Below, piece by piece: positions 413-24,905 of a stretch of DNA of 32,000 nt. The notes beneath the pieces are model-generated. The model was not told the DNA's origin and did no database searches. It was given only the letters and a program-made list of their open reading frames with translations. This DNA comes from Haloquadratum walsbyi C23 (GTDB taxonomy: Archaea > Halobacteriota > Halobacteria > Halobacteriales > Haloferacaceae): positions 2,820,001 through 2,852,000 of the forward strand of contig NC_017459.1 in NCBI RefSeq assembly GCF_000237865.1. The letters run 5' to 3'. Every line of letters begins with the position of its first letter. The first letter of the stretch is position 1. The position numbers were made by a program, and so were the translations under genes.

Positions 413-745
413 GACCTTCCCTGCCCTGAAGCGCAAAGATTCCTTCGTGGGGCATCGGACCGTCCAACGCTACCCCGAAGGTAACGTCCTCATCCACGAC
501 GGATGAGCAGTGGGAACAGCACAAGTCGCTCTTCGAGAAGTATCTGTGGGGTGGTGGGTTCTGCGTTCGTTCGTGATACATCAGGACTGCGGGAACCGTC
601 TCAACGGAAGCAATTGAAGAGTACGTCGAACAACCAGAACACGTCTAAGCGTCGGATCGACCTTCTCGGAATCAGATTAGAGCCCTGAGGCATTCTGCCT
701 CGAAACCTGTAGAATTATTTTAAAGTTGGAATACAGTCTGATACG

Positions 746-1123
746 TTAGCTATCTTCAAGAAGGACAGCGCTGACTTGACCAGTTTGTCCTGGTCGGGAT
801 GTCACACGTGCCTGCCCTGCAGAGGTTTCGATAATTGCTCCCTTCGTGATAATATTTCGTCGGATATAATTAACATTTGCAGGATTATCAACAACATTTT
901 CAATTTCCTCTGTAGTCACTTCACCACTATCTGCAACTTGTGCAATATTTGTTGAAAGTGCACGGAGTTTGTCGTCAGACCCACGAGCGTCGATAACTTG
1001 AAATCGGGGGTCATCGACTGTTGTCTCTGCAGGCTCACGCCCAAGTTGGTGTCGCTTCTTTTTACTTACATCATGAAGTCGTCCACCAGTTCGTTTCCGT
1101 GTTGATCGTCCTTGATCTTTCAT
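746..1123 (-). CDS. rps8e: 30S ribosomal protein S8e
   Basis: I trimmed ORF 746..1198 to the ATG at 1123. The N-terminus MKDQGRSTRKRTGGRLHDVSKKKRHQLGREPAETTV is the characteristic archaeal S8e N-terminus. The discarded 25 codons are Cys-rich and not halophile-like. Confidence 0.9.
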   Translation of the reverse strand: MKDQGRSTRKRTGGRLHDVSKKKRHQLGREPAETTVDDPRFQVIDARGSDDKLRALSTNIAQVADSGEVTTEEIENVVDNPANVNYIRRNIITKGAIIETSAGQARVTSRPGQTGQVSAVLLEDS

Positions 1124-1236
1124 ATTAATAGACTCTCTCGATGAGCACTTGAATGGCTCGCATTGTATGTATATGCGGGACACACTTGTCGGGTCCAATA
1201 GATTATATTGTCTGCATATGCAGTATGTGTATAGCT

Positions 1237-1698
1237 ATGAGTCTTGAAATTGCCGTTGCTGTCCCATTTAAACAACGTGGAACAACCCGTCTTGGCGAAG
1301 GTGCATTCGTCGTTGCACTTTCACTTGATCGGAGTTGGTTTTCACCCGACCAAGTCCAGCGATTAATTACTATCGCTGCCAGTCGCGGATTACTTTCTCA
1401 GTCTGATGATAAAGTTATTGCAGAGTTCGACCCAGCAACAGTATCAATTCCTGAGTCTTACGAACCCGACGAATCAATCCTTCGAGAGCAATCGGCATTC
1501 GAGCAGTTACTTGATGTACTTGTTACTGCTGGATATGAGAAACGTGAGGCGGTTGCTGAGATCAACGAACGACAACGTCAGCTCGCTATCTCCGTTGAAG
1601 CGGCAGCGGCAGTCTATGCGACGGAAGTCGGTCTTGATCTCGATACAAATGGTGGTAGTGCGATTGATATGGCGTATAACTCACTTTGCAGTGAATGA
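1237..1698 (+). CDS. Conserved haloarchaeal protein (recalled as DUF2240-type, unverified)
   Basis: I trimmed ORF 1153..1698 to the ATG at 1237 (MSLEIAVAVPFKQRG...). The protein is acidic. The discarded N-terminal stretch is Cys-rich. The gene is divergent from rps8e across an AT-rich spacer. Confidence 0.65.
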   Translation: MSLEIAVAVPFKQRGTTRLGEGAFVVALSLDRSWFSPDQVQRLITIAASRGLLSQSDDKVIAEFDPATVSIPESYEPDESILREQSAFEQLLDVLVTAGYEKREAVAEINERQRQLAISVEAAAAVYATEVGLDLDTNGGSAIDMAYNSLCSE

Positions 1699-1857
1699 CT
1701 GATTCACATCAATGAAATATCAGTAAAATAAATACTCTCACGATAATTTGTAGTTGAGACCGTGGAATATCTGTTGAGTCATACTACCCATGAACTACCA
1801 CGGGCGTGGTGGTTCGTAGTTTTGCTGTGGTCTCTGGCGGGAAGCTAGCGGAACGAC

Positions 1858-2184
1858 CGATGGCGAGTTTAATTCCGCCTGCGCTCGTCTCTGGTGAGAC
1901 TCACGTAGAACTGGTAACACCCGAACACACCGTCGGTACCACCCCAACAAATGTCGTCTGTTGCTGCCGTGATGGGTGTGTCCGTGGGTGTCCGCCCCTC
2001 GCGTGGGCGCGACACAGGCCCGGCGCACCGCGTCTCACCCAATAGTGGGTGCGTGGGTTTTGCGAGACCGGTAACGTGGGTTCCAGACTGGTATACGGCG
2101 TCCCGATAGCTCGGAACAGGCGCGTAGCCGAGCGCACGCGTTTCACCCCCGCCCACGGTGGGGCGAGGAACTCGCGCTGCTTTT
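1858..2184 (-). ncRNA. Large G+C-rich structured RNA-like element. Tentatively 7S/SRP-like RNA, or alternatively the largest copy of the interspersed element family described in the findings.
   Basis: There is no credible ORF. The 5' GCGAGUU (2175-2169) pairs with the 3' AACUCGC (1869-1863). Three 5' hairpins have U.G wobbles that work only on the minus strand. GCGCCUGUUCCGAGCUAUCGGGAC resembles the UGUAAU-turn and helix-4 part of SRP Alu domains. A long imperfect helix joins the 5' and 3' halves. An A/T box (2211-2220) lies about 32 nt upstream. I could not find a canonical helix-8 GNAR/AGCA arrangement. Confidence 0.4.
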
Positions 2185-2201
2185 GATTCACAGTGAATAA
2201 C

Positions 2202-5200
2202 TCAACCCCAGTTATTTTTCAATGTTGGTCGATCGGAGACCGGGTCGATATCTATTGGGTCATTTTTGCTGTCAATCGCTTCAAGTGCGGCAAAGGCTGA
2301 TGCGGTTGTTGAGAAGTATGTGATTTCCTCTTCAACGCAGACTTCAAGCGGATCGCGATCGCGGGAAATGACAATATCAATTTCGCCCTGTCGAAGTGCA
2401 TTGATAAGAGTGTCCACATCATCATCCTCGGAGAATGTCACGAGTTCAAAACACGCGTCATAACCATCTCGGAGCGCAGCGCCATCATTACTATCCGGGG
2501 CGGGGAACTCTTCATCTGAGAGATCGACCCAAGCGGTCCCTGAGGATGGAATTGGCTTTCCAACTGAATGTTGTGCTTTGTCATAGGCTTTGCCAAAGGT
2601 TGCAGCGGTTCCCATGACCTCCCCCGTTGATTTCATCTCAGGACCAAGTCGTGGGTCTGACCCTGGTAATCGATCAAACGGTAAGACAACTTCTTTAACA
2701 CTGGTTTCTGCTGGAATTTGTTCGGTAACATCTAATGTGGTCAGCGATTCACCAGCCATTACCTTCGCTGCGAGTTTTGCGATTGGAACACCTGTTGCTT
2801 TTGAGACAAATGGCACGGTGCGTGACGATCGCGGGTTTGCTTCGAGAACATACACCTCATCGTCTTTGATAGCCAGTTGGACATTTAAGAGTCCAACTGT
2901 GTCCAGTGCAGTAGCGATATCCTCTGTAACAGTGCGAACACGAGCCATTGTCTCAGCACTCAGTGACCGCGGGGGGATCATACATGCAGAGTCCCCCGAG
3001 TGGACACCGGCGCTTTCGACATGCTCCATCACACCGCCAATGATCGTACGCTCACCATCAGCAACAGCGTCTACATCAAGTTCAATTGCATCAGCAAGAA
3101 ATTGATCAATAAGAATAGGTTTATCAGGTGAAACGCGGACTGCCTCTTCGATGTACTCCTGTAATTCTACATCAGAGTGGACAACATCCATCGCGCGCCC
3201 TCCAAGCACATATGAGGGGCGGACGAGTACAGGATATCCAAGATCATTCGCAAGCGTAAGCGCTTCAGACTCACTTGTTGCTGATCCACCGACTGGTTGT
3301 TTGATATCGAGACTGCTCATCAGACGGTTAAACCGATCACGATCCTCAGCAAGATCCATTGCATCGACGCTTGTGCCAAGAATATCACAGTCAAGTCCAC
3401 GACGGTCAAGTTCAGCTTCAAGTGGATGTCCAATATTAACTGATGTTTGCCCACCAAACTGCACCATCACACCATCAGCGTTGGTTGCTTCAGCGACATC
3501 CGCAACCTCTTCAGCAGTAATTGGCTCAAAAAAGAGCCCATCAGAGGTATCATAATCTGTTGAGACAGTCTCTGGATTATTATTGATGACGTGTGCATCG
3601 ATTCCAAGTTCCCTAAGAGCACGCACTGCATGGACTGAGCAGTAATCGAATTCCACGCCCTGCCCGATTCTAATCGGACCACCACCGACGACGACAACAC
3701 TTTCAATATCACGGTCAACGCGAAGTTCTCCTGCTGCTGCAGCGCCTTCATACGGTCCAGAACCAGAGGTAAATTCAGGCTTTCTGGAAGAATAATAATA
3801 TGGTGTTTGTGCAGCGAACTCGCCAGCGCAAGTATCGACTTGTTTATACGTTCGACCAGGAACAGTTTTCTCAACCACGTCAATCGTCTTTTCTGTTGTC
3901 TCCGCAATTTCGGTGTTTGTAACACCAGTTGTTGCAGCGGCTGTCAGTTCACCTTCCTCTGCGGTTTTCAGTGCAGTTGGCACGCGCTGGAATCGTTTGA
4001 GATACCACTGTTTGATACCGGTAAGCTCAGCGACCGTATCGACAGTATACTCACGATCGAAGGCTTCAAAGATTGCATACGCACGATCTGGCGTTGGTCT
4101 ACTGAGATACTCAGATTTGAGCGTTTCATCACTGAGAGTCTCAAGATTGGCTGCTGGGTCGTACTCAGATGAGCGTAATGCTTTCAACAATGATTCCTCA
4201 AATGTTCGACCGATGGCCATTGCCTCACCGGTAGATTTCATAGCTGTTGAGAGCTCAAAGTCGACATTATCAAATTTATCCTTAGGCCAGCGCGGAACCT
4301 TTGTAACGATATAGTCGATTGCAGGTTCGAACGCAGCGGTCGTCTCACCGGTTATCTCATTGTTAATTTCATGGAGTCGCTTCCCGAGTGCGACTTTTGC
4401 CGTGACACGAGCAATCGGGTATCCAGTTGCTTTCGAGGCAAGTGCTGAGGACCGAGAGACTCGAGGATTCACCTCAACAACACGATACTCTCCCCCAGGA
4501 GTCCCGTCGTCATGCCATGCGAATTGAATATTACAACCACCTTGAATGCCAAGTTCACGGATAACATCGAGTGCAGCATCACGCATTGCTTGATGTCCTT
4601 CATCAGGAATAACCTGGGATGGAGTCACCACAATTGATTCACCAGTATGAATCCCCATCGGATCAAGATTCTCCATGTTGCAGATAATAATAGTCGAATC
4701 GTCAGCATCACGCATTACTTCATACTCAAGTTCTACCCATCCCGCAATTGACTCGGTGATTAATACTTCACTGTTGCGAGAGAGCCGTAAGCCCTTGCGG
4801 ACACGCTCGATCAGCTCATTCATCTCAGCAACAACACCTGAGCCAGATCCGCCAAGGGTGTATGTAGTCCGAGCAATAACTGGAAGCCCGCCAACTGTCT
4901 CAACAGCCTCATGTACTCGATCTTTGAGATCTGCCTCGGTAAGCGATTGCACAGCCTCGTCTTCTGTCAGTGAGATAGTGGTCGACTGAGGTACCGGCTG
5001 TCCGATGCGCTCCATCCGTTGACGGAACAGATCGCGATCTTCTGTTGCATATATCGTCTCAAGCGGTGTTCCCATAATCTCGACATTGTGTGTTTCAAGA
5101 ACACCTTCCTCTGCAAGTTCTGCTGTGACATTTAATCCAGTCTGCCCACCAAGTCCGGCAATTACACCGTCTGGCTGCTCGGAACGAATAATCTCAGCAA

Positions 5201-5471: not shown

Positions 5472-5531
5472 TGCGGTACAGTCCGCACATCGTAATAAGC
5501 CCGGCGAAATGCTACGAGATACGAAGTCGAA

Positions 5532-5546
5532 TTACGAAATTCGTAA
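5532..5546. promoter_or_regulatory. Perfect 7+1+7 palindrome TTACGAA-A-TTCGTAA upstream of carB (candidate operator)
   Basis: Seen directly, 61-75 nt upstream of the carB ATG (5471). A palindrome of this size is expected about twice by chance in 32 kb, so only its position is suggestive. Confidence 0.25.
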
Positions 5547-5598
5547 GCACATACGCACAGAAATCATTAGATAATAGATCTTCTGTGATCAAGCATAG

Positions 5599-6129: not shown

Positions 6130-6323
6130 ATCATTATATTATATCCACAGCTGTTAAAAACCCTGATTTAGAGAATCATTCAGCCAAGATTGCGAAAAGA
6201 CCAGCCCCTCATGGAGCGGCTGGAGAGACCGAGTAACAAAGCGTTATCCACATTAATTAGTCGTTTCAGACAGAAGAGCCGAAAGCAGTCGGGTGATTAT
6301 AATAACTAATTGATACGATTTTG

Positions 6324-6575: not shown

Positions 6576-6632
6576 CGTTAATCAGATTTTCTATGTGACC
6601 TGCGCATTAAACTTCCGTTCTGAAGAGCAATC

Positions 6633-7157: not shown

Positions 7158-7164
7158 AAGGAGG

Positions 7165-7976: not shown

Positions 7977-9695
7977 GTGATTGAGGATCCGACCCGCATC
8001 GAGTGGCGTCAGTGGGGTGATGAAGCGTTTACCGAAGCGCAGGCAAGTGATACACCAATACTTCTCTCATTGACAGCAACTTGGTGTAATAGTTGTCGTG
8101 AGATGGATATTGAAACATATGCTGAACCACGTATCGCCGCTAATATTAATGATGGATTTATTCCGATCCGTGTCGATATCGATCGTCATCCACGGGTCCG
8201 TGAGCGATATAATATGGGTGGATTCCCATCGACTGTCTTCTGCACGCCAACAGGAAAGTTACTCACAGGTGCGGCATATCTTGGACCTGATGGGATGCGA
8301 CAAGTCATTGACTCCGTTCGGTCTGTCTGGGCTGAAAGGGGTGCTGATGCCGGCCGAGTCCCACAGGCGCTCACAGATAATCCAACGCCAACAGGAACGG
8401 TCGATGAGCGTATCGAGTCACATCTTGTCGGGCAACTTGAGTCAAAATGGGATGATCGATTTGCGGGGTGGGGAGATAATGCAAAGTTCCCACTTCCGCG
8501 GACGATTGAGTTCGCCCTTAAACGAAAACAAAGCCAAGCAATTGAGACACTTCGTGTGATTGCGGAGTCATTATATGACCATGATATAGGCGGATTCTAC
8601 CGATACGCTAACAGCCGCGATTGGTCGACACCGCATAAAGAGAAAATTCTTGATACAAACGCTGCGCTTATTCGCGCATTCGTAAATGGGTATCTCTATA
8701 CGGGTGAGGAAACACTGCTTGATCCCGCATACGGCACACAGCAATTTCTTATTGATCAACTATGGAATGGTGAAGCATTCGGAAAAAGCACTGTTCCGCG
8801 GTCGGAGAATGAGTCGGTAACAGAGGCATCAGAGACAACCGCCGACACTCGTCGTGACTTAACAGCGTACGCAGGATCAAACGCACTCATGGCAGATGCA
8901 CTATTGACACTCGGTGCATATACCGATGACAAAGCAGCGTATGAATATAGTCGTCGTGCACTCGCGACGCTTGAGTCAGCGTTTATTATTGATAATGGAA
9001 TTGTTCTTCATGCTAAGTATGACAGAGAATCAGATAACGCTAGCATAGCTGATGATGCGACAGTCATCACAGAAATAGCCGATATTGACTCTTCTAAGCC
9101 TGTGCTATTATTAGAAGACCATGCTCGCATCATCAATGCATTCGTCACCGCACATCAAGTGCTTGGACCAGATGTAGATGCGCTCAGTGATACTCCCATG
9201 TCAATTGCGAGTGCTGTTGCTGATGCGGCAATAGATGCACTCTATGATCCTGACGCTAATGGAGCGTTTCGAGATGGTCTGACAACTGGTCCCGGATTGC
9301 TTGATTGCCCACTTCGACCACTTGATGCGACCGTTGAGATGGCAGAAGCACTGTTTGAGCTTGCAGTTGTAAGCGATACTAAGCGATATAGTACAGTTGC
9401 AACAAATGCACTGGCAGCATTTGCGGGTGCTCGTGACCGGTTGGGTGTCCAAGTCGCTGGGTATGGAGCAGCCACAGCACGGGTAACACGACCAATGCTC
9501 GTTGTGAGAATAGGTGCTGGGGTAGGGTCAGATCTTCATCGTGCCGCGCTGCGCATTGCTGATCACGAAGCGATTGTTATACCTAGTGTCTCGGATATCC
9601 AACACGATTCAGCCCGTCTCACCCGTGGGTCAAAAGTCGAGACTGCAACTACGCCGGATGAAATAATGAACGCGGTGTCAATGCTCACAGAGTGA
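7977..9695 (+). CDS. Thioredoxin-domain protein of the DUF255/YyaL type
   Basis: 572-aa ORF with a GTG start. The N-terminal thioredoxin fold carries an atypical CxxC (TATWCNSCREMD), followed by an alpha/alpha-toroid-like region. Confidence 0.75.
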   Translation: MIEDPTRIEWRQWGDEAFTEAQASDTPILLSLTATWCNSCREMDIETYAEPRIAANINDGFIPIRVDIDRHPRVRERYNMGGFPSTVFCTPTGKLLTGAAYLGPDGMRQVIDSVRSVWAERGADAGRVPQALTDNPTPTGTVDERIESHLVGQLESKWDDRFAGWGDNAKFPLPRTIEFALKRKQSQAIETLRVIAESLYDHDIGGFYRYANSRDWSTPHKEKILDTNAALIRAFVNGYLYTGEETLLDPAYGTQQFLIDQLWNGEAFGKSTVPRSENESVTEASETTADTRRDLTAYAGSNALMADALLTLGAYTDDKAAYEYSRRALATLESAFIIDNGIVLHAKYDRESDNASIADDATVITEIADIDSSKPVLLLEDHARIINAFVTAHQVLGPDVDALSDTPMSIASAVADAAIDALYDPDANGAFRDGLTTGPGLLDCPLRPLDATVEMAEALFELAVVSDTKRYSTVATNALAAFAGARDRLGVQVAGYGAATARVTRPMLVVRIGAGVGSDLHRAALRIADHEAIVIPSVSDIQHDSARLTRGSKVETATTPDEIMNAVSMLTE

Positions 9696-9730
9696 AAGAG
9701 TTGCTACCGGATCTCATCGATTGGAATCAC

Positions 9731-10080
9731 TAACAGCGCTTTGTACCGGGACTGCGACCGCCATACCTCCACGCTGGGTGGCGTTTGCACTGGGGTTAAC
9801 CTGGGGCACAGCGCCTGTATATCGGTTAAAACTGTTTTTATGATGCTGAATGCTGACCGAGGCGGTTTCTACGCCCTGTTTCAATGAGACAGATTGAGAT
9901 TCTTTCTTTCGTCGTGGAAGCCACCTCGTGAACTCACCCAGGGTCAAGCCCTGAGGCAGTCGCCCCGAACCGCCTATACATCAGCCGAATGAGGTGCAGG
10001 ACGCAGAAAATAACCCCGAATCCCCGTCTCTCGACAGTAGGTACGGTATAGTGGCGTGGCAATACCAGCGTTCCTTTTTG
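9731..10080 (+). repeat. G+C-rich ORF-free structured block, member of the interspersed element family
   Basis: The only ORF (9714..9947, minus) is strongly basic and not halophile-like. Modules are collinear with the element at 2184-1858 and with 24673-24880 (coordinates in the findings). The block starts 36 nt after the upstream stop codon. Confidence 0.45.
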
Positions 10081-10112
10081 AACTGTAAAATTCTCAATCT
10101 CACAATCCAGAA

Positions 10113-10133
10113 AGTCTCCGCGTGTGGGAGACT
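10113..10133 (-). terminator. Hairpin plus U-tract downstream of mptA
   Basis: AGTCTCC (10113-10119) pairs with GGAGACT (10127-10133). On the minus strand the hairpin is followed by UUUCUGG. It lies 25 nt after the mptA stop. Confidence 0.4.
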
Positions 10134-10157
10134 CCGTCGTTTATTTTGAAGAGAATA

Positions 10158-11674: not shown

Positions 11675-12026
11675 ATCCGCGTCACCACCTGGTGCTCCGC
11701 CATCAGTTCGGACACGCGAGTGAGCAGTTTTGCTCTTTTTTTTCGAATGTAAACTGTATATACTATTGGTCATAATTATATTGATCTTAACTATGCTACT
11801 GGACAGTCATCAAAAATTGCATCGGTCCAGCTTTACTTCATGACTTCGTATAAAGTCTGTTAGTCATAGATATTATTTCTATCAGATAAAAATATATGAA
11901 TCTAGATTCAGATGCATCTTGAAGATTATGTCTATTTTATATTATCGTGGTCGAATCTATCCTCTTGATCATTATCCGAACCGTCCTCACGTATTAAACG
12001 AGCGCTGAGTCGTATCTGGACCTAAA

Positions 12027-12121
12027 CGGAAAGCAGCGCGAGTTCCCGATGCCACTATGCGTCGGGTACTTCACAGAATTGTAATCCGGATATCATGACG
12101 GCTAATCCCGAGGCAGTTCAC
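12027..12121 (+). ncRNA. Truncated paralogue of the 5' domain of the element at 2184-1858
   Basis: The 17-nt stretch 12030-12046 is identical to 2183-2167 (minus strand). It is followed by a 13-bp hairpin (12040-12071) that is isostructural with 2169-2146 but has a different stem sequence. A UUGUAAUCC motif and a TATTAAA box (11992-11998) are also present. Confidence 0.45.
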
Positions 12122-13366
12122 TCACTCGATAACTGTTTCTATTGGCTCAAGATCGTCTAATTCGAATTCTTCCTGCATCAATATATCACGCTGACCAGAG
12201 ACAACGCGACGTTCTCGCATCAGTTGTTTATATTTCGATTGTGGTGAGAGGTCACCGATAAGAACGCCACCGACAATACGCCCATCTTTAAATGCTAATC
12301 GTCGCCATTCAGTGTCGGAGTGTTTTGCCTCGGCAGTATCATCACCAAGGGTTGGATGTCCAAATGAGAGGAATGGGAAATCAAAGTGAGTAATCGAGTA
12401 TGATGAGACCCACTCAAATGGTTCTGAATTATACTCAATCATGTTTTTTGCTGCAATCGATCCTTGCTCTTTTGCCGACCCCCATGCGCCATTCTGCCCA
12501 CGTTCTCCAAGTATCCGGTCATAAAACTGTGTGATATCGCCTGCAGCGAATACATCCTCGTGACTTGTCTGCATATATTCATCGACAATAATCCCATCAT
12601 CACACTCGATTGGGGTATTTTGGAGAATCTCAGTATTGAAATTCAACCCAATCGCAATACCAACGAAGTCAGCATCATACTGGTCACCATTTGGGTCAAC
12701 GGCTGTAGTTACATGACCAGTCTCATCGACCTCAAAGTGATCAACTCCTGACTGGAACACGGGCTCAACGCCACGTTCACGAAGCGCATCATGAATAATT
12801 GATGCACCCTGCTCGGAAAGCGCATATCGCCACCAGCAATCCCCGCGCATCAAGTACTTTCCTTCGACGTCCTGTGCGGCAGTGATAGCTGCGAGGTCAA
12901 TCCCGAGTAATCCTGCTCCAACAATAACGGAACTGTCCGCAGACTCAATGTTTGATTTGATGTCTCGAGCATCTTGGAATGTCCAGAAGTGATGGACTCC
13001 ATTTGCGTCAGCGTTCTCAACCGGCAGTTGTGTCGGCGTCCCACCTGTCGCGAGAAGGAGCTTATCCCAGTCATACACGTCGCCATGATGTGTCTCAATT
13101 GTATGCTCAGTAACATCAATATCAACGACAAGGGTATTCAATTCGAGATTAATATCACGATCATCATACCAAGACACATCGTGAATTGAGATTGGCGCCG
13201 CTGGGAGCTTTCCTTTTGCATACTCCTTGATTAGAATTCTATTATATAACGACTCGCCTTCATCGGTGAGAACGGTGATATCAGCATCAGGTGCCTCCCC
13301 ACGAAGTGTCTCAGCGGCGGAGCTCCCCGCAACCCCGTCACCGATAATCACGTACGACTGGGTCAT
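12122..13366 (-). CDS. FAD/NAD(P)-dependent pyridine nucleotide-disulfide oxidoreductase family protein
   Basis: 414-aa ORF with two Rossmann GxGxxG motifs (VIIGDGVAGSSAA and VIVGAGLLGIDLA) and FAAGD near the C-terminal third. Confidence 0.85.
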   Translation of the reverse strand: MTQSYVIIGDGVAGSSAAETLRGEAPDADITVLTDEGESLYNRILIKEYAKGKLPAAPISIHDVSWYDDRDINLELNTLVVDIDVTEHTIETHHGDVYDWDKLLLATGGTPTQLPVENADANGVHHFWTFQDARDIKSNIESADSSVIVGAGLLGIDLAAITAAQDVEGKYLMRGDCWWRYALSEQGASIIHDALRERGVEPVFQSGVDHFEVDETGHVTTAVDPNGDQYDADFVGIAIGLNFNTEILQNTPIECDDGIIVDEYMQTSHEDVFAAGDITQFYDRILGERGQNGAWGSAKEQGSIAAKNMIEYNSEPFEWVSSYSITHFDFPFLSFGHPTLGDDTAEAKHSDTEWRRLAFKDGRIVGGVLIGDLSPQSKYKQLMRERRVVSGQRDILMQEEFELDDLEPIETVIE

Positions 13367-13394: not shown

Positions 13395-13514
13395 GTGAAT
13401 TGCTATCAGGAGTGCCCAGGTCTTAACAACGATATTAATACACACACCAACCTATAACATAATATCTGCAATTCAGATCTCTTCATATGAACCGTTTGTA
13501 TGGCAGCCGTGAAC

Positions 13515-13545
13515 TGCCTCGAGGTCAAATCAAAGCCTCGAGGCA
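13515..13545. promoter_or_regulatory. 10-bp inverted repeat containing two CCTCGAGG palindromes, in a divergent promoter region
   Basis: TGCCTCGAGG (13515-13524) and CCTCGAGGCA (13536-13545) are separated by 11 nt. The two 8-bp palindromes are 19 bp apart centre to centre. Confidence 0.4.
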
Positions 13546-13649
13546 CTCGCCTTGTTCCGCCTGTAGATTGATTACAATCACATGTATGAGTGGTGTAATA
13601 TACATATACAATCGGATACTTGAAGTTCGCTCAAACTAATCCAGGGTTG

Positions 13650-14258
13650 ATGAAAATTCGTCAGAATATTCGACATTTCGCCGCAAAGAAGGCACTCACG
13701 ATGCCTATTATTGGTGATATCGCGACAGAAAAACTCGTGGATCTTCATGTCAGTATTTTTGGGAAGAAAGCCGACCCTGAGTACCGCGAGGAACGAGAGC
13801 CACATCTTGAGACATTTTTTGATTGCACATTTGAAACGTATGTCTGTGCACTTGAGGAAGGATTTACTGAGGCAGAAGCCCGGGAAATCACGCATATTCA
13901 AGCGAATTTCGACTTTTATAATCATGGATGGACAGAAATGATGGAATTCCCTGCGGAAGAACTTGAAACGCATTATGAGCGGTATGAGGAGTTCTTTAAT
14001 AGATATAATATCGACATCGCAAGTCCACTTGGTGATTTCAAAACACAAAATATCATTGCAGCATCATCAACGCCAGGACGGCTTAATAACCCAGAACATC
14101 CACATGCCGAGGGTGGATTTGCGGACGACGTATACGTTGAAACTGAGTCTGGCGAACTTACTGTCGGTAGTCAAACAGAGCCAGATACTATTAATGTTGA
14201 AGATGCACCTGGACTCCAAGATGTTGATACTGACACCGATGAGATAACTGAAGCTTGA
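13650..14258 (+). CDS. Conserved haloarchaeal hypothetical protein with an acidic C-terminal tail
   Basis: I trimmed ORF 13620..14258 (TTG start) to the ATG at 13650 (MKIRQNIRHFAAKKAL...). The protein is acidic. I do not recognise the family with confidence. Confidence 0.55.
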   Translation: MKIRQNIRHFAAKKALTMPIIGDIATEKLVDLHVSIFGKKADPEYREEREPHLETFFDCTFETYVCALEEGFTEAEAREITHIQANFDFYNHGWTEMMEFPAEELETHYERYEEFFNRYNIDIASPLGDFKTQNIIAASSTPGRLNNPEHPHAEGGFADDVYVETESGELTVGSQTEPDTINVEDAPGLQDVDTDTDEITEA

Positions 14259-14497
14259 GGTCTTCCCCCATCCTGAAGGAACGATGGTTTGACCCACAGC
14301 TTCTATACGTCGAATAACGTTAGAGTAGGCAGTATCTGCTTTGTTTACCTGTGAGTAGCCTAAGCAGCAGACGGAATCCAACTCACTCGCCACCGCTCAA
14401 TCAGCTGTGTTTCTATATGATAAATTATTAATCATTAAATAAATAGTTGCCGTGCTACATCGCACAGTCTGTGGCTCTTCATAATAGCAATTTGATA

Positions 14498-17079: not shown

Positions 17080-17432
17080 AGGTAACATCGAGATTTTTAG
17101 GATCACCTGACCTCTGGATGACTCAGTTGATTTCTTGACTCGCAAACCCTACCATTCGTTCGGAATGTAAGCCTGTCTAGATCGGAGCGCTTTGTAAGCT
17201 ACCCATCCTCATTCCACGAACTCGCTCTGCGTGGAGCGCTGTTGATATATGTTGAAGCGATTGTAAAAGCCACGGGTTACTCAATTCATGATCGTTTATT
17301 CTGGAGATAAATATGAAAGATCCTTGCACCAAATCCAGCGATTAACTGTAAGTCAAAAAGAGGTTTATCATTCCGATAGCCGTCAAATAGGTCAAAAACG
17401 CTTACTTGCCGAAAATTAACAAAACCGGCTGT

Positions 17433-18341: not shown

Positions 18342-18364
18342 ATGTTTAATTATACCCGAACACA

Positions 18365-19355: not shown

Positions 19356-19556
19356 TTGTCTCATGGAGAATAATTGATAGCAATGACTGAGGAGGATATA
19401 TGCTCATACCATGTGTCACTGGAAGCGAAAATATGGGTACATCAGTTATTAGGAATAAATAGAAACTGGTGTTTCGATTGGTGGCTACTGGCACATCTCA
19501 CAATCTGACGATGCGATTTAATTATTAGGCTTATTGGTAGAAGTGAAATATCATCA

Positions 19557-20510: not shown

Positions 20511-20750
20511 ACAACTTGATAGAATGGAGATGGTGTTACCATTGTTGGTGTTCGATTAGTTGAGATAAATTTATACTACATATATCGTATATTACTGTTA
20601 TTAATCTGTGGCGAAATCACCCAATGGCAGCATCCATGTCCACATCTCAGGATACTCATATCGTTTATATTAAACATGAGTTTGATACCATCCATGCACA
20701 GATGCATCAAATTGGCTTTTGAGTGTGATGGCTGAAATGAACATACGGGT

Positions 20751-22263
20751 TTAATCTGCGCGTGACTGTGACCGTGACCCAACGGCGAACGCCTCGGTCT
20801 GTTCATCGGCTCCAGCGGTTGTAATAAGAGAAACACCGACAGTCAATACAAGCGAAAGAACGATTCCATACAGCGCAAAGTCCCAGGTTAAATATGTTGA
20901 TCCAAACACCGTGACGCCAGCGATGGTGGTCGATGGAATAAATACATGTAAGAGATAGAATACTTGAGAACCAGCAATTCCAGCAAACATTCCCTGTCGT
21001 GTTGTTTGTGACCAATATAGTGCAATTAATACTGGGAGCGTCAGTTGTGCGAACCCACCAAATGCTGTATCGCCGATTTCAACAAGGTCCCCGGGCGGAA
21101 CAGACTGGCAGCAAATGTTGCAAGTGCAAATCCAGCAACTCCAAATCTTCCAATCCATCCTTCCCGACTCGTTGATGCTGTTGGGTTGATGAGGGGTCGA
21201 TAAATATCACGAGTAAGATATGATGACCCAGAGAGGAGCATCGAGTCTGATGATGACATCATCGCTGCCATAGCACCGGCAACGACGAGTGCAGCAAACC
21301 ATGCTGGGGTATATTCAGTTAATAATACAGGAATAACATTTGATCCTGATGGGACAGAAATTCCCAATCCAGCGGCCCATGACCCAAGGAGAAACGCAGG
21401 AACAAAGAGTAATAAGACAAGGATCGGCATAGCGTGAATGAGCGCTTTAGCACTGTAGCACTTTTAGCGACAAAGAATCGCTGATTGATCTGTGGAAACA
21501 TTGTGACGCCAAAGGCAATTGTCACTGCTGTTGAAATCATCCATTGTGGGGAATATAATCCACCACCAAGTGAGAGAAACTCTGGATTTGATGTTGCAAG
21601 CGCAGTCGAAACCGAATCCATGCCGCCTGCACTTGACAGCACCCATGCAACAGCAATCCAGATGATACCAAGCATAAATATACCCTGAAGGGTATCGGTC
21701 CATGCAACCCCACGAAGTCCCGACGCGGCGACATAGATAATCATAAAAACGGTTATCAGTGCTGCACCCGCCCAATATGGCACTGCGCCACTAGTGAGTC
21801 CAACAAGTGCCTCGCCTGCACCCATCTGTTGTAACATGATATATGGGAACAGCCAAAATAATGACACACCGGCAACAAGATATCGCAATCGCGCTGAGGC
21901 GAAGCGATCGCCAAGCATCTCGCCGAGTGTTACATAGCCATGGCGTTCACCAACAAGCCATTGCCGATATCCAATGACATACCAAAGGATTGCAAAGAGG
22001 ATGCCATCCATTAGCCCCATGACAAGTATCCATTCAGGACCAGCACCATATGTGAGATTTGGACCACCAAAGAATGTAAACGCCGAGAGAAGAGTCGCAA
22101 AGGTGGTAAAAAGCAGTACGATTGTTCCAAGCGAACGACTGGCAAGATAATAATCTTCAGCATCGCTGCCCGTTAATCGGTATCCAACAATCCCAACACT
22201 AAGAGCAAGAACGAGATATGCAGCAACAACGCCTAGTTCAATGCCAATTGCCGATTCAGCCAT
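20751..22263 (-). pseudogene. Sodium:solute symporter (SSF) family transporter, disrupted by two frameshifts
   Basis: Three consecutive ORFs in different frames (21319..22293, 21041..21430, 20751..21158) together read as one SSF protein. The frame switches near 21431-21446 and in the C/G run at 21087-21099. Confidence 0.8.
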
Positions 22264-22507
22264 CTGCTCGGTCCTCCATGCCATCATCAACACCTGTTAT
22301 TGGAACATCCATACCACGGTCCCATGCGTTGCGGGTAAAAGCGGCAAATGCAACCGCTGCAATACACATCCATCCGATATGCCACCATAACCACACTGGA
22401 AGACCTCCGAACGTGACGGTGTTTCCCCATAGAAACCATGGGATGGCGAATGTGACAAGCACTGCAAAAACCCCGATCCATATATAATCCCTCTGATTTC
22501 GGGTCAT
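22256..22507 (-). CDS. Small two-TM membrane protein, the usual DUF3311-type partner of SSF symporters
   Basis: 83-aa Trp-rich ORF with 2 TM segments. Its stop overlaps the symporter ATG (22263) by 8 nt. Confidence 0.65.
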   Translation of the reverse strand: MTRNQRDYIWIGVFAVLVTFAIPWFLWGNTVTFGGLPVWLWWHIGWMCIAAVAFAAFTRNAWDRGMDVPITGVDDGMEDRADG

Positions 22508-22775
22508 ATCTGATAATAGTTGATTGATACACCTAAACGTTGTTCTTCAAGCTTTCATTAACGCTGTTGAAGAGATATTTTATTCAAAAGCGGCGAAATA
22601 TTGATACCTAATTCATTGCTGTCGTCGATTGCTATGATGAGGTCCCCTAACAATACCGTGGTGACACTGTGGTGTACGATATACGACAAGTATTTGCCGC
22701 GAGCAAGCCGTATCTAAATACGTCACAGAGATGTGACATCATCATATCATCATTCACCCCGCAGGGGGAATTATC

Positions 22776-24503
22776 ATGAACGACTCAGATAAATATCTCA
22801 TCCACGCCGCGATTACTGCAGACGGAATCGTTGAGCGCTCTGACGTTGTGGGAGCGATCTTTGGTCAAACAGAGGGATTGCTGGGCGACGAACTCGATCT
22901 TCGTGATCTTCAGCAGTCCTCAAAAGTCGGGCGAATTGATGCCGACATTGATTCACAGAATGGTCAATCTTTTGGCGAGGTTACAATCGCCAGTAGTCTT
23001 GATCGTGTTCAAACAGCAATTCTTGCTGCCTCGCTCGAGACAATTACTCGGGTTGGACCATGTGATGCGACTGTTGAAGTTACTAACATTGAGGATGTCC
23101 GGCAAGCCAAACGTCGTGAAGTCGTTGAACGAGCAAAAGAGCTTCTTGTTGAGTCATTTGATGAAAGTGTGATGACTTCTTCAGAGATTCTTGAGGAGGT
23201 TAAAGAAAGTGTTCGAATCGGAGAAATTGATGAATACGGCGGTCTCCCTGCTGGTCCGCATGTTGCTGATTCTGATGCAGTTATTATCGTTGAGGGACGT
23301 GCCGACGTACTGACACTTCTTCAGTATGGGATCAAGAATGCAGTTGGAGTCGAGGGGACCAATATCCCAGAGTCGATAGCCAAGTTGACACACAATCGAA
23401 CGACGACAGCTTTCTTTGACGGCGACCGTGGTGGTGATCTCATTCTTCGTGAATTAAGCCAAGTCGGCGATGTTGATTATGTTGCATTCGCCCCCGAAAA
23501 CAAATCTGTAGAGGATCTCAAACGCGCAGCTGTATTTGATGCACTCCGAGAGAAAATCTCAATTGACGCAGTGGAGATTGATCCCAACCGTAGGGTAGAT
23601 AATGAGCCTGATGTTGGTAGCGCCACTAATGCAGATATTGGTCTCAATACTGAATCCAGCGATACTGACGAATCATCATCCCAAACAACAGTCACTGATG
23701 GTGAAGGAAAAGTGCGTTCTAAAGCCATATCGGCAGCAGAATATCATACGGACACATCAGGCGTTGATAATGCACATAGAGACCAATCGCCAGATGTAAT
23801 CACAAACGATCAATCAGCAACTGAAACACACTCAGATGATGTCGAGCAACGTACCACCAATCAACATATTTCAACAGCAAATAATAGCTCCCAGGTTCAA
23901 TCAGAATCTGTCACAACTGATTCAGCAGTAGATTCAAACAACTTAGACAGTGTAAATACCATTTCATCAGAAGCACAATCATCCCAGTCACCTAATCAAT
24001 CCGTGGATAAGTCAGAACGAGAGACAGAACCAGAGACAGAGACAGAGACGGATGTGAATTATTCACCTGAGAAGACACAATCAAATACTAATAAAAACTC
24101 CGTTACTGATGTCCAAAGCAGTGTCGAGGGGCAACCGGATATGTCTGAGGAAGCATCAAAGTCTGACAACGGTGCTCAGGATAACTCAGCGGGGGAATCC
24201 GAAGAGCCCAGTTCGTTACGCGATCACGCACGCACAGTCGTTGGTGGAGACACAGGGTGCGTTCGGCTTGTTGATGAAGAGTATACAACGCTCACGGAAG
24301 CACCAGTTGCAACCGCTGTTGATGCCGTTAAGACAGCCGATGCTGTTCCACACGGTGTCATCGCCGATGGAGATATCACGCAGCCACTGCTTGATATCGC
24401 CTCACAGCGCGGTGTTGAGCAGATTATCGCTGCATCAACAGATGAGTTCGTGAAGCGACCAGTTGGTCTGCAATTGCGGACAGCAGATGAGCTACTGAGC
24501 TGA
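22776..24503 (+). CDS. dnaG: Archaeal DnaG primase (TOPRIM) with a very long low-complexity linker
   Basis: The N-terminal YLIHAAITADGIVERSDVVGAIFGQTEGLLG and the TOPRIM motifs (IIVEGRADVLTLLQYG, FFDGDRGGDLI) identify it. About 210 aa of S/T/D/E/Q/N-rich sequence precede the conserved C-terminal domain. Confidence 0.9.
   Translation: MNDSDKYLIHAAITADGIVERSDVVGAIFGQTEGLLGDELDLRDLQQSSKVGRIDADIDSQNGQSFGEVTIASSLDRVQTAILAASLETITRVGPCDATVEVTNIEDVRQAKRREVVERAKELLVESFDESVMTSSEILEEVKESVRIGEIDEYGGLPAGPHVADSDAVIIVEGRADVLTLLQYGIKNAVGVEGTNIPESIAKLTHNRTTTAFFDGDRGGDLILRELSQVGDVDYVAFAPENKSVEDLKRAAVFDALREKISIDAVEIDPNRRVDNEPDVGSATNADIGLNTESSDTDESSSQTTVTDGEGKVRSKAISAAEYHTDTSGVDNAHRDQSPDVITNDQSATETHSDDVEQRTTNQHISTANNSSQVQSESVTTDSAVDSNNLDSVNTISSEAQSSQSPNQSVDKSERETEPETETETDVNYSPEKTQSNTNKNSVTDVQSSVEGQPDMSEEASKSDNGAQDNSAGESEEPSSLRDHARTVVGGDTGCVRLVDEEYTTLTEAPVATAVDAVKTADAVPHGVIADGDITQPLLDIASQRGVEQIIAASTDEFVKRPVGLQLRTADELLS
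24021..24050 (+). repeat. Tandem hexamer repeat (GAGACA-like, 5 units) inside dnaG
   Basis: The sequence gagaca gaacca gagaca gagaca gagacg encodes ETEPETETET. Confidence 0.85.
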
Positions 24504-24505
24504 AT

Positions 24506-24573
24506 ACGGGTGCTAATCCCCCGTCCTCAAGAAACGAGCGAAGCGAGTGAGTAGGGCGGGGATACAGCACCGT
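24506..24573 (+). other. 19-bp interrupted hairpin starting 3 nt after the dnaG stop codon
   Basis: ACGG(G)UGCU pairs with AGCACCGU and AUCCCC(C)GUCCU pairs with AGGGCGGGGAU, around a 25-nt loop. One U.G pair is valid only on the plus strand. No U-tract follows directly. Confidence 0.5.
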
Positions 24574-24672
24574 CATCAGTTATTCATACAGTTCAATCGA
24601 TACAGATATTCTCCTCTTGGCATAATTAATGATACGATACTTCCTACGCTTCTGACAGTGTCCAAGCGCAAC

Positions 24673-24880
24673 AAAAAGCGCGCACTGTCGATTGTGGGCG
24701 AGTATCCACAGGTAGGAGTGGTTCACTCCGAACCGCCCCTGAAGGGAAATCGCCTGCGGAGTCTGGAATCCCGTGCCCACATTTGGTATACATTCCGACG
24801 CAGAAACAGGAAGCCCTGTCCTCAGCAAGCGAGGGGCGAGCTTCCGAGCGCAGTAGAGCAGGGTAGTTCACTGGTAATTC
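24673..24880 (+). repeat. G+C-rich ORF-free structured block, a short (5'+3'-like) member of the interspersed element family
   Basis: Four blocks are collinear with 2184-1858 (minus) and three exact blocks with 9965-10009. Internal perfect helices are GUGGGC/GCCCAC, GGAGUG/CACUCC and GGAAGC/GCUUCC. The ends GCACU (24682-86) and AGUGC (24873-77) can pair. Confidence 0.45.
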
Positions 24881-24905
24881 TTAGTGCTGCTATCTGGGAT
24901 GTTCA

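What the first reader, a model, noticed from the sequence alone, without database searches (positions are those of the whole stretch)
413..24905. Six of the eight convergent spacers carry a related G+C-rich structured block, co-oriented with and close behind the upstream stop codon
Divergent (promoter) spacers here are short and AT-rich. Convergent spacers are long (201-503 nt, apart from one of 33 nt), and six of the eight contain an ORF-free, visibly G+C-richer, hairpin-dense block.

The blocks share short collinear modules (details in the separate findings). Each is on the strand of the gene that ends just upstream:
- 428-716 (+) starts 16 nt after the phoU-type stop
- 2184-1858 (-) starts 18 nt after the carB stop
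- 9731-10080 (+) starts 36 nt after the stop at 9695
- 14345-14395 (+) lies after the stop at 14258
- 17186-17250 (+) lies after the thrB stop
- 24673-24880 (+) lies after dnaG

Only 12027-12121 lacks a co-oriented upstream gene.

This position and orientation pattern is what bacterial REP/BIME elements or 3'-UTR-derived sRNAs show. I do not know of a described archaeal equivalent. I do recall that Haloquadratum genomes are annotated with intergenic repeat or MITE-like elements, which could be the same thing.

Caveat: 8-11-nt matches occur by chance many times in 32 kb. The case rests on collinearity, spacing and position, not on any single match.
Basis: partly seen in the sequence, partly recalled or inferred. 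Interest (0 to 1): 0.75.

Follow-up and report, generated by a model that had tools for sequence, protein, structure and literature searches.

The report
Decayed IS200/IS605 transposon relics (PATEs)
The G+C-rich blocks between convergent genes in this Haloquadratum walsbyi window are gene-less or gutted copies of IS200/IS605 transposons, a class described in this species in 2011 as PATEs, so the finding is real but already explained.

Summary
The window is Haloquadratum walsbyi HBSQ001 DNA. Five of the six flagged convergent spacers, plus the tandem spacer at 12.0 kb, contain recognisable IS200/IS605-derived elements. These are two full-length PATEs (1790-2187 minus strand; 24500-24871 plus strand), a 245-nt PATE interrupted by a nested 53-nt PATE (9846-10143), a gutted element with a tnpA pseudogene remnant (410-708, minus strand), a tnpB 3'-end/omegaRNA-type remnant (17119-17315), and a 49-nt "terminal-only" PATE (12026-12074). 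I found one more PATE at 13509-13562, in a divergent spacer. Block e (14259-14400) and 9696-9845 could not be verified. The blocks are not one sequence family: only 4 of 28 spacer pairs beat shuffled controls. They are related only by class, through left and right ends that match published HqIRS44/46/54/71 and ISNph/ISHwa termini. "Co-oriented with the upstream gene" is automatically true in a convergent spacer, and block a is actually on the other strand. Closeness to stop codons is real and has a cause: the insertion targets (TCTAA, TTAG) are often stop codons, and insertions into the last codons supply new stops. Dyall-Smith et al. 2011 described these elements, and later papers showed that such elements are transcribed and often encode omegaRNAs. 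Already known; low interest.

The parts
410..708 (-). Internally deleted IS200/IS605 element: left end (HqIRS46-like), tnpA C-terminal pseudogene remnant (reads on the + strand, 478-645, with an internal stop) and right end (ISHwa24/HqIRS54-like, 462->410). The last bases of the right end overlap the PhoU stop codon (410-412).
   Evidence: Published termini align above shuffled maxima. blastn matches annotated tnpA genes at 80% identity. tblastn with TnpA gives E=1e-17. nhmmer LE46 profile gives E=0.0019.
709..713 (-). Target motif (TAM) TCTAC immediately 5' of the left end of element a; 32 nt downstream of the S8e stop codon (746-748).
   Evidence: Alignment to HqIRS46 5' end from position 1.
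1790..2187 (-). Full-length (398 nt) HqIRS44-type PATE, 62% G+C. The left end starts 14 nt after the carB stop codon. The right-end hairpin and the terminal TTCAC (now TTCAT) are degraded, and the target motif is degenerate (TGTGA).
   Evidence: HqIRS44 5' end scores 81 against a null maximum of 24, and the 3' end scores 48 against 27. Full-length copies at 77-85% identity occur in Natronococcus, Natrinema, Salinibaculum, Halovenus and Salinarchaeum. Its core gives an Rfam sot2652 hit with E=0.075 in a local search.
9846..10143 (+). 245-nt PATE (CTGAATGC...CCGTCGTTTA) split into 9846-9925 and 9979-10143 by a nested insertion. Its right end lies 14 nt before the folE2 stop codon.
   Evidence: A contiguous 253-nt copy in Natronorubrum aibiense (L006:1501-1753) aligns to the two halves.
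9926..9978 (-). Nested 'terminal-only' HqIRS46-type PATE (about 53 nt, fused left-end and right-end palindrome, ending ...GAGTTCAC).
   Evidence: Matches the HqIRS46 3' end to its last base and the 5' palindrome. nhmmer LE46 gives E=0.0022. It fills exactly the gap in the Natronorubrum alignment.
12026..12074 (+). Terminal-only HqIRS44-type PATE (49 nt) preceded by the target CCTAA (12021-12025). It shares an exact 17-mer with element b.
   Evidence: I23; z=14.5; 26-nt matches to about 30 haloarchaeal left ends.
12100..12121 (+). Weak right-end-like fragment (..CCCGAGGCAGTTCAC) whose last base abuts the stop codon of the pyridine-nucleotide oxidoreductase gene (12122-12124).
   Evidence: 15/15-type match to the ISNph8 3' end, marginal. 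nhmmer RE46 gives E=0.46. Tentative.
13509..13562 (-). Terminal-only HqIRS46-type PATE with target TCTAC (13563-13567).
   Evidence: nhmmer LE46 gives E=1.5e-4 and RE46 gives E=0.11. Sequence read directly. Also.
17119..17315 (+). 3'-terminal remnant of an IS1341-type tnpB gene plus its downstream region (omegaRNA/sotRNA-type), decayed. It starts 39 nt after the thrB stop codon.
   Evidence: blastn matches the last 133 nt of annotated TnpB genes plus 48 nt downstream, in 5 genera, at about 75% identity. tblastn with TnpB residues 404-436 gives E=2e-5. Rfam RF02657 sot2652 aligns full-length at 27.5 bits (gathering score 61), with E=3e-4 in a local search and many broken pairs.
24500..24871 (+). 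Full-length (372 nt) HqIRS71-type PATE. Left end CTGAATAC..., right end ...GTAGTTCAC, degenerate target TGAG at 24496-24499. The dnaG stop codon (24501-24503) lies inside the first bases of the element.
   Evidence: 42 plasmid records, 103 places. Sharp family boundaries. Alignment A1 of 11 copies from 8 genera. Covariation-supported structure. nhmmer LE71 gives E=2e-13 and RE71 gives E=6e-17.
14259..14400 (.). Block e: unverified. It resembles a reverse-complemented right end of the HqIRS54 type, or an HqIRS71-type left end, but not significantly.
   Evidence: No blastn hit. nhmmer gives E=1.2. The only support is local similarity e-h (z=4.4) and d-e (z=3.5). A sister lineage carries a 508-nt PATE in the orthologous spacer.
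9696..9845 (.). Left part of spacer d: unassigned, 52% G+C. It has an 11-nt ATACAGGCGCT left-end-like motif on the minus strand near 9830.
   Evidence: No hits. Read directly.

Best explanation
WHAT IT IS. The G+C-rich blocks are non-autonomous derivatives and decayed remnants of IS200/IS605-family insertion sequences. Most are PATEs (palindrome-associated transposable elements), from at least four different families (HqIRS44-, 46-, 54/56- and 71-type).

HOW IT WORKS (established knowledge of IS200/IS605, not shown here). A Y1 transposase, TnpA, supplied in trans, excises the top strand as single-stranded DNA. It recognises the sub-terminal hairpins of the left and right ends. It reinserts the element immediately 3' of a 4-5-nt target (TTAC, TTAG, TCTAC, TCTAA), with no terminal inverted repeats and no target duplication. 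The 3' part of full elements encodes the omegaRNA that guides TnpB.

SHOWN HERE. (1) The ends match published termini. (2) Full tnpA/tnpB elements and gene-less copies share the same left end across genera. (3) tnpA and tnpB pseudogene pieces sit inside two of the blocks. (4) One PATE is nested inside another. (5) A sister Haloquadratum lineage has a filled site and an empty site in the orthologous spacer e, with a TTAC target, a TCAA end and no duplication. (6) The HqIRS71-type family has a strand-specific secondary structure supported by covariation.

INFERRED. The elements accumulate in convergent spacers because insertions there spare promoters. They sit at stop codons for two reasons: the targets TCTAA and TTAG are frequently the stop codon of the upstream gene, and insertions into the last codons are tolerated because the element ends contain TGA and so supply a new stop. 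The elements are G+C-rich because they are shared with 60-65% G+C haloarchaea. The window copies are old: fixed in the population, the most diverged members of their families, drifting towards A+T, and probably no longer mobile.
For: 1. Published PATE/IS605 termini (Table S9 of PMC3119063) align above shuffled maxima at 410-443, 681-713, 1791-1834, 2138-2184, 9928-9964, 12022-12066, 13516-13567, 24498-24531 and 24796-24871.
2. Block b has full-length relatives at 77-85% identity in five genera. Its left end, always preceded by TCTAA, also heads complete tnpA/tnpB elements in nine loci.
3. Block h has relatives in 42 plasmid records (103 places), with boundaries TTAG|CTG...GTAGTTCAC|.
4. A TnpA remnant gives E=1e-17 and a TnpB remnant gives E=2e-5. 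Block f equals the last 133 nt of tnpB plus 48 nt downstream.
5. There are sub-threshold Rfam sot2652 hits.
6. The nested insertion is resolved by the Natronorubrum copy.
7. Filled versus empty site: a 508-nt, 61% G+C insert after TTAC, ending in TCAA, with no duplication, in L145 but not L146. It truncates the amine-oxidase gene from 489 to 463 aa, with the new stop inside the right-end hairpin loop.
8. Structure of the h family: 96.3% of cells paired; 27 pairs with double changes against 12.1+-2.3 in shuffles (0 of 500 reach the observed value) and 3-9 in slid controls; many invariant G.U pairs.
9. Polymorphism: blocks 4.8%, other non-coding 3.2%, coding 0.9%.
10. Window copies have the most private changes, with GC->AT against AT->GC of 33:16 and 27:10.
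11. Target used as a stop codon: 27% of element sites against 9.5% of background TCTAA sites end an ORF of at least 200 codons (p=0.04), and 41% against 16% for at least 80 codons (p=0.018). Annotated CDSs end on the TTAG target in L138 and L140.
12. Organism: the oxidoreductase protein is identical to H. walsbyi CAJ53416.1 and CCC41581.1, and locus L152 is AM180088.1.
13. Literature: PMC3119063, PMC10055086, PMC4615843.
Against: 1. Block e and 9696-9845 have no significant relatives, so 'six of eight' becomes five of eight verified.
2. The 12100-12121 fragment is marginal.
3. The window copies were present in all 16 near-identical H. walsbyi records examined, so the mobility of these particular copies is inferred from relatives, not observed.
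4. The b family is too conserved for covariation (4 of 121 pairs), and Rfam hits are far below gathering scores, so an RNA role for the window copies is not shown.
5. I could not read the GenBank mobile_element annotation of AM180088/FR746099 to confirm the HqIRS numbers assigned to these copies.
6. The stop-codon/target enrichment rests on 22 against 74 sites and mixes target preference with survivorship.
Confidence: 0.92

Rival explanations
1. The blocks are host-selected structured RNAs: 3'-UTR-derived sRNAs, terminator or stabiliser modules of the upstream gene that merely resemble each other.
For: They lie directly behind stop codons, in sense to a flanking gene. Blocks h and t fold better than shuffles. 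The h family has a covariation-supported, strand-specific structure. PATE and sot transcripts exist in Halobacterium (PMC4615843).
Against: The blocks are more polymorphic than other non-coding DNA within H. walsbyi. They are absent or replaced at the orthologous sites in J07HQW1- and J07HQW2-type lineages, although the genes are 77-90% identical. Homologous copies sit in unrelated contexts in many genera. Two blocks contain transposase pseudogene pieces. The window copies carry broken pairs.
Confidence: 0.07
2. They are an archaeal counterpart of bacterial REP/BIME elements, mobilised by a RAYT-type (TnpA-REP) transposase.
For: They are extragenic, palindrome-bearing and enriched between convergent genes. 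RAYTs are relatives of IS200/IS605 TnpA (general knowledge).
Against: The units are 245-400 nt (or about 50-nt fused ends), with distinct left and right ends identical in type to those of tnpA/tnpB-bearing IS605 elements. They are not 20-40-nt REP palindromes in inverted pairs. No RAYT gene is present in the window. tnpA (IS200-type) and tnpB remnants are present.
Confidence: 0.03
3. They are MITEs, mobilised by a DDE transposase.
For: They are short, non-coding, repeated and intergenic. H. walsbyi does contain MITEs (HqIRS32-39).
Against: There are no terminal inverted repeats: the left end CTGAATAC... is not the reverse complement of the right end ...GTAGTTCAC. There is no target-site duplication in the filled/empty pair or at the window copies. 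The ends match IS605-type, not DDE-type, elements.
Confidence: 0.01
4. For the two unverified pieces only (block e and 9696-9845): remnants of decayed host genes, or simply fast-evolving spacer DNA with chance similarity to the other blocks.
For: No significant hits in any search. H. walsbyi has unusually long, gene-poor spacers that mobile elements do not fully explain (abstract of PMC3119063). Fold z-scores are near zero.
Against: Their G+C content (0.50-0.52) is above that of neighbouring spacers. There are short similarities to left- and right-end types. The orthologous spacer e is a proven PATE target in a sister lineage.
Confidence: 0.4

Closest known systems
PATEs (palindrome-associated transposable elements) of Haloquadratum walsbyi, HqIRS44/46/54/56/71 types (Dyall-Smith et al. 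2011, PLoS One 6:e20968)
   Same: Same species. Same terminal sequences, targets (TCTAA, TCTAC, TTAG, TTAC), sizes (about 370-400 nt full-length, about 50 nt 'terminal-only'), lack of inverted repeats and target duplication, heterogeneity between types, and tendency to insert into other mobile elements.
   Different: Nothing essential. The window copies are diverged (heterogeneous) members. I could not read the database annotation to give their exact HqIRS numbers.
IS200/IS605-family insertion sequences with tnpA (IS200-type) and tnpB (IS1341-type), e.g. ISNph6, ISNph7, ISNph20, ISHwa17, ISHwa24
   Same: The left-end and right-end hairpins and the targets are shared. Blocks a and f retain tnpA and tnpB 3' coding remnants.
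   Different: No intact transposase or TnpB gene is present in the window, so the elements are non-autonomous or dead.
omegaRNA / sotRNA (Rfam RF02657 sot2652; Gomes-Filho et al. 2015; Meers et al. 2023)
   Same: Block f covers exactly the tnpB 3'-end plus downstream region that encodes these RNAs, and it aligns full-length to RF02657. The HqIRS71-type family has a conserved sense-strand structure. PATEs are reported to be transcribed and to 'often encode omegaRNAs'.
   Different: Scores are far below the Rfam gathering threshold, pairs are broken in the window copies, and neither expression nor TnpB association was tested.
Bacterial REP/BIME elements (REPtrons)
   Same: They are extragenic palindromic repeats that pile up between convergent genes, and they are moved by a Y1/HUH transposase related to TnpA.
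   Different: The unit size and architecture differ (asymmetric left and right ends against short REP pairs). No RAYT gene is present. The elements derive from tnpB-bearing insertion sequences.

Membership tests
PATE (Dyall-Smith et al. 2011) | Too short or degenerate to encode a transposase | tested here: met
   No tnpA or tnpB Pfam domain in any window ORF. Only a 56-aa TnpA remnant with a stop codon and a 33-aa TnpB remnant were found.
PATE (Dyall-Smith et al. 2011) | Near-terminal palindromes related to those of IS605-type transposons | tested here: met
   Alignments to the Table S9 termini exceed shuffled maxima. nhmmer profiles give E values from 2e-13 to 2e-3. The same left end heads tnpA/tnpB elements. 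Not met for block e.
PATE (Dyall-Smith et al. 2011) | No terminal inverted repeats and no target-site duplication | tested here: met
   The ends CTGAATAC... and ...GTAGTTCAC are not inverted copies of each other, and the flanks are not duplicated. In the filled/empty pair the insertion lies between TTAC and the next base, with no duplication.
PATE (Dyall-Smith et al. 2011) | Conserved terminal or target oligonucleotide at the 5' boundary | tested here: met
   TCTAC at 709-713 and 13563-13567; CCTAA at 12021-12025; TTAG in 8 family members; TCTAA in 24 of 27 cross-genus copies. The target is degenerate at b (TGTGA) and h (TGAG).
PATE (Dyall-Smith et al. 2011) | Repeated or mobile: multiple copies and strain-specific insertions | tested here: inconclusive
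   Many copies exist in other genera, and a presence/absence polymorphism exists in a sister lineage. The window copies themselves are fixed in all 16 H. walsbyi records.
Autonomous IS200/IS605 element | Intact tnpA and/or tnpB gene between the ends | tested here: not met
omegaRNA / sotRNA (Rfam RF02657) | Score at or above the Rfam gathering threshold | tested here: not met
   27.5 bits (block f) and 18.5 bits (block b) against a gathering score of 61. Nothing reached the threshold in the gathering scan.
omegaRNA / sotRNA (Rfam RF02657) | Encoded at the 3' end of tnpB and extending to the right end, on the sense strand | tested here: met
   Block f equals the last 133 nt of tnpB plus downstream sequence. 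The h-family structure is strand-specific, with invariant G.U pairs.
omegaRNA / sotRNA (Rfam RF02657) | Transcribed and bound by TnpB | not testable with these tools
   No expression data are available here. The literature gives precedent only in other species.
REP/BIME | Imperfect palindromes of 20-40 nt with a conserved GTAG/CTAC head, arranged in inverted pairs | tested here: not met
   The units are 245-400 nt with asymmetric ends, or about 50-nt fusions of a left end and a right end.
REP/BIME | Associated RAYT (TnpA-REP) gene in the genome | not tested
   None is present in the window. The whole genome was not available.
MITE | Terminal inverted repeats matching a DDE transposon, plus a target-site duplication | tested here: not met

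The most novel reading that the evidence does not exclude
In haloarchaea the insertion targets of these IS200/IS605 families (TCTAA, TTAG) frequently are the stop codon of a gene. The element then lands in sense orientation directly behind that gene, and its omegaRNA-like, structurally conserved core would be made as part of the gene's 3' UTR by read-through, without a promoter of its own. Insertions into the last codons give host genes new stop codons and new C-termini. PATEs would then systematically remodel gene 3' ends and act as a reservoir of orphan guide RNAs for TnpB acting in trans.
Probability: 0.15. Interest if true: 0.5.

Novelty: already known. Interest (0 to 1): 0.15.

Why it matters
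It matters little beyond correct annotation. The long G+C-rich convergent spacers of this window are explained by old IS200/IS605-derived insertions, which were catalogued for this species in 2011. Two by-products may be useful. First, there is a measurable tendency for the targets TCTAA and TTAG to be the upstream gene's stop codon. Second, there is a direct filled/empty example of a PATE truncating a gene and supplying its new stop codon. Together these explain why the class sits 'right behind stop codons' and show how it reshapes the C-termini of proteins. The covariation-supported structure of the HqIRS71-type family, seen across eight genera, could seed an Rfam-style model for haloarchaeal PATE and omegaRNA annotation.

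Tried and rejected
1. Rfam at gathering thresholds found only tRNA-Ile. A hit to Plastid-ycf2 is the antisense strand of that tRNA and a chance match.
2. I suspected the 414-aa ORF at 12122-13366 was a tnpB. Pfam shows it is a pyridine-nucleotide oxidoreductase.
3. blastn of block e and of 11774-12125 against plasmids gave no match. blastn of e, 9696-9845, spacer g and four control spacers against 237 kb of haloarchaeal loci gave no match. The nhmmer left-end and right-end profiles do not reach significance on e.
About three quarters of its hits were chance bacterial matches and none came from Haloquadratum, so genome-wide copy number and orientation in H. walsbyi could not be tabulated.
5. 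An exact-protein look-up with the folE2 ORF found nothing.
6. I looked for presence/absence variation of the window copies in 16 near-identical H. walsbyi records. All copies are present in all of them.
7. I looked for a clean empty site for the 13509-13562 PATE in the J07HQW1-type lineage. That spacer is 52 nt shorter but too diverged to call.
8. Covariation in the b family: there is too little variation.

Full report
ORGANISM AND LAYOUT. The window is about 47% G+C and carries haloarchaeal genes. The oxidoreductase encoded at 12122-13366 is identical to the Haloquadratum walsbyi proteins CAJ53416.1 (HBSQ001) and CCC41581.1 (C23). A locus fetched through the DUF92 protein is AM180088.1, at positions that place the window at roughly 2,664,551-2,696,550 of the HBSQ001 chromosome. 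No intact tnpA or tnpB gene is present.

- Spacers a (413-745), b (1699-2201), d (9696-10157) and h (24504-24905) are 51-56% G+C, against 36-45% for ten control spacers.
- The claim that the blocks are related to one another is weak. With Smith-Waterman scoring and 100 dinucleotide shuffles per pair, only 4 of 28 spacer pairs exceed every shuffle. These are a-d (a shared palindrome), b-t (an exact 17-mer), d-e and e-h.
- 'Hairpin-dense' holds only for h (z=-3.4), t (z=-2.2) and b (z=-1.8). For a, d, e and f the low folding energies are what their G+C content predicts.
- Divergent spacers are A+T-rich but are 114-482 nt long, so they are not short.

WHAT THE BLOCKS ARE. That paper catalogues 177-194 PATEs and about 100 mostly disrupted IS605-type elements per H. 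walsbyi genome. PATEs are palindrome-associated transposable elements: non-coding, without inverted terminal repeats, without target duplication, and with near-terminal palindromes like those of IS605-type transposons. The termini printed in its Table S9 align to the window above the best of the shuffled queries at nearly every block. Small profile HMMs of the end types confirm this. Element by element:

(a) 410-708, minus strand. The target TCTAC lies at 709-713, followed by an HqIRS46-like left end. A right end like that of ISHwa24 runs down to position 410. In between, 478-645 (read on the plus strand) encodes the last 56 residues of an IS200-type TnpA with an internal stop (61% identity, E=1e-17). 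At DNA level this stretch matches annotated tnpA genes in a dozen genera. The arrangement is left end, then antisense tnpA, as in full elements. It is a gutted IS200/IS605 element.

(b) 1790-2187, minus strand. This is a 398-nt HqIRS44-type PATE (left-end score 81 against a null maximum of 24). Full-length copies at 77-85% identity occur in Natronococcus, Natrinema, Salinibaculum, Halovenus and Salinarchaeum. In 27 haloarchaeal loci found with its 17-mer, the same left end, preceded by TCTAA, heads either a complete tnpA/tnpB element (nine loci) or a gene-less element of about 400 nt.

(d) 9846-10143, plus strand. This is a 245-nt PATE. A contiguous 253-nt Natronorubrum copy aligns to 9846-9925 and to 9979-10143. 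The 53 nt between those pieces are a 'terminal-only' HqIRS46-type PATE on the minus strand. So this is one PATE inserted into another. 9696-9845 remains unassigned.

(t) 12026-12074, plus strand. This is a 49-nt terminal-only HqIRS44-type PATE behind the target CCTAA. A marginal right-end fragment ends at 12121.

(New) 13509-13562, minus strand. This is a terminal-only HqIRS46-type PATE behind TCTAC, in a divergent spacer.

(f) 17119-17315, plus strand. This corresponds to the last 133 nt of annotated TnpB genes plus 48 nt downstream (about 75% identity in five genera). It still encodes TnpB residues 404-436. It aligns end to end with Rfam RF02657 (sot2652), the Halobacterium IS1341 3'-end RNA, but at 27.5 bits against a gathering score of 61 and with many broken pairs.

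(h) 24500-24871, plus strand. This is a 372-nt HqIRS71-type PATE with relatives in 42 plasmid records. In eleven copies from eight genera, similarity starts right after TTAG and stops exactly at GTAGTTCAC.

(e) 14259-14400. Nothing significant was found.

STRUCTURE. For the h family, RNAalifold predicts 103 pairs. Of the cells, 96.3% are paired. Twenty-seven pairs show changes on both sides, against 12.1+-2.3 in column shuffles (0 of 500 reach the observed value) and 3-9 when the partners are slid by 1-3 columns. The supported helices include the left-end and right-end hairpins and several internal ones. Many pairs are invariant G.U, so the structure belongs to the top (left end to right end) strand. 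This fits both TnpA's single-stranded DNA substrate and a sense-strand omegaRNA-type transcript. The data cannot separate the two. The window copy has 8 of 103 pairs broken. The b family is 88% identical and gives no usable covariation.

ARE THE WINDOW COPIES FUNCTIONAL OR DECAYING?
- In ten collinear contigs that are 98.8-99.1% identical to the window, every element is present. However, the blocks are more polymorphic (4.8% of sites) than other non-coding DNA (3.2%) or coding DNA (0.9%).
- The window copies of h and b have the most private substitutions in their families, with GC->AT outnumbering AT->GC by 33:16 and 27:10.
- The right-end hairpin of b is degraded, and the targets of b and h are degenerate.
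- In more distant Haloquadratum lineages (J07HQW1- and J07HQW2-type; genes 77-90% identical) the same spacers cannot be aligned, and they hold other IS605-type ends or none.
- These are old, fixed, decaying copies, not conserved host RNAs.

DIRECT EVIDENCE OF THE INSERTION MECHANISM. Two sister contigs of the J07HQW1-type lineage differ in the orthologous spacer e by a 508-nt, 61% G+C insert. The empty allele reads ...ggaTTAC|CC|ctg.... The filled allele reads ...ggaTTAC|AGTTGTTCAAGACGAAAGCCCACACGGC...GGGAGGAGGTCAA|CT|ctg.... The TTAC target, the TCAA end, the HqIRS54/ISNph18-type hairpins and the absence of duplication are the IS200/IS605 signature. The insertion falls 33 codons before the end of the convergent amine-oxidase gene. 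The gene now ends after 10 new codons, at a TGA in the loop of the right-end hairpin, shortening the protein from 489 to 463 aa.

ORIENTATION AND STOP CODONS. In a convergent spacer, an element on either strand is necessarily co-oriented with the gene that ends upstream on that strand. Closeness to stop codons, however, is real.
- The right end of a overlaps the PhoU stop codon.
- The fragment ending at 12121 abuts the oxidoreductase stop codon.
- The dnaG stop codon lies inside the first bases of h.
- b starts 14 nt after the carB stop codon, and d ends 14 nt before the folE2 stop codon.

Two causes emerge. First, the targets contain stop triplets. Among cross-genus copies of the HqIRS44/ISNph6-type left end, the TAA of TCTAA ends an ORF of at least 200 codons in 6 of 22 sites, against 7 of 74 background TCTAA sites in the same loci (p=0.04). 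For ORFs of at least 80 codons the counts are 9 of 22 against 12 of 74 (p=0.018). NCBI-annotated CDSs end exactly on the TTAG target in two h-family loci. Second, insertions into the last codons survive because the element ends contain TGA (CTGAATAC; the reverse complements GTGAAC and TTGAC; the CTGAAG loops). The filled/empty pair shows this directly. Removing h from the window sequence predicts an ancestral DnaG ending ...ELLSGNS*, where the protein now ends ...ELLS*. This last point is inference.

WHY G+C-RICH? The families are shared at 72-85% identity with genera of 60-65% G+C, whereas Haloquadratum spacers are about 40% G+C. The elements are immigrants that have only partly drifted towards the host composition.

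COMPARISON WITH WHAT IS KNOWN.
- The class, its occurrence in this species, its derivation from IS605-type elements, the 'terminal-only' forms and the nesting are all described in Dyall-Smith et al. 2011.
- Gomes-Filho et al. 2015 showed RNAs at the 3' ends of IS1341 tnpB genes and an expressed PATE in Halobacterium, and noted that fused ends are common in haloarchaea.
- Meers et al. 2023 state that PATEs often encode omegaRNAs that TnpB would act on in trans.
- REP/BIME elements are mechanistic cousins only, and the MITE criteria are not met.

VERDICT. Novelty: already known. Interest is low. The stop-codon-as-target tendency and the supply of new stop codons are minor additions that would need a genome-wide test.

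Noticed in passing
window 20751-22293 (-): The sodium:solute symporter gene is split into two ORFs in the window by two 1-nt deletions (after 21085 and 21427), relative to all ten near-identical contigs, where it is an intact 512-aa gene. This is either a strain-specific pseudogene or sequencing errors.
   Followed up: partly
window 13509-13567 (-): A 54-nt terminal-only HqIRS46-type PATE with its TCTAC target sits in a divergent (promoter) spacer, between the oxidoreductase and DUF6149 genes. This shows the elements are not confined to convergent spacers.
   Followed up: yes
L145 (reverse-complement coordinates 12438-12945) versus L146: A presence/absence polymorphism of a 508-nt HqIRS54/56-type PATE in a J07HQW1-type Haloquadratum lineage. 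It inserted after TTAC inside the 3' end of the amine-oxidase gene, which now stops at a TGA in the loop of the PATE right-end hairpin (489 to 463 aa).
   Followed up: yes
L065, L100, L119 (left-end hairpin); L157, L139, L142 (element cores): Small hairpin-rich insertions lie inside IS605-type elements in other genera. A 50-nt insertion (about 150 nt in L100) sits at the same position in the left-end palindrome in Natrialba, Halorutilales and Halovenus. A 52-62-nt double-hairpin insertion sits in PATE cores of Natronococcus and Haladaptatus. They behave like the SMR-A elements described only for Haloquadratum.
   Followed up: no
L158 418-500; L140 543/544: An annotated DHFR-family CDS in Natrinema runs about 80 nt into the right end of a PATE. 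In Natronorubrum bangense a PATE fills the whole spacer between two convergent CDSs: one stop codon is the TTAG target, and the other abuts the right end.
   Followed up: partly
window 19356-19556: The one long convergent spacer with no recognised element is 110-130 nt longer than in the J07HQW1- and J07HQW2-type lineages (about 73-94 nt there). It is 37% G+C with no detectable repeat.
   Followed up: partly
window 26937-27545 (+) and 27579-28538 (-): A 202-aa ORF covering only the C-terminal half of the undecaprenyl-diphosphate synthase domain lies convergent to a full-length uppS gene, 33 nt away. It is called as a gene in all the records examined.
   Followed up: no
L148 13395-15105: The thioredoxin-domain (DUF255) gene that is intact in the window (7977-9695) is broken into five short ORFs in the J07HQW2 genome.
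   Followed up: no
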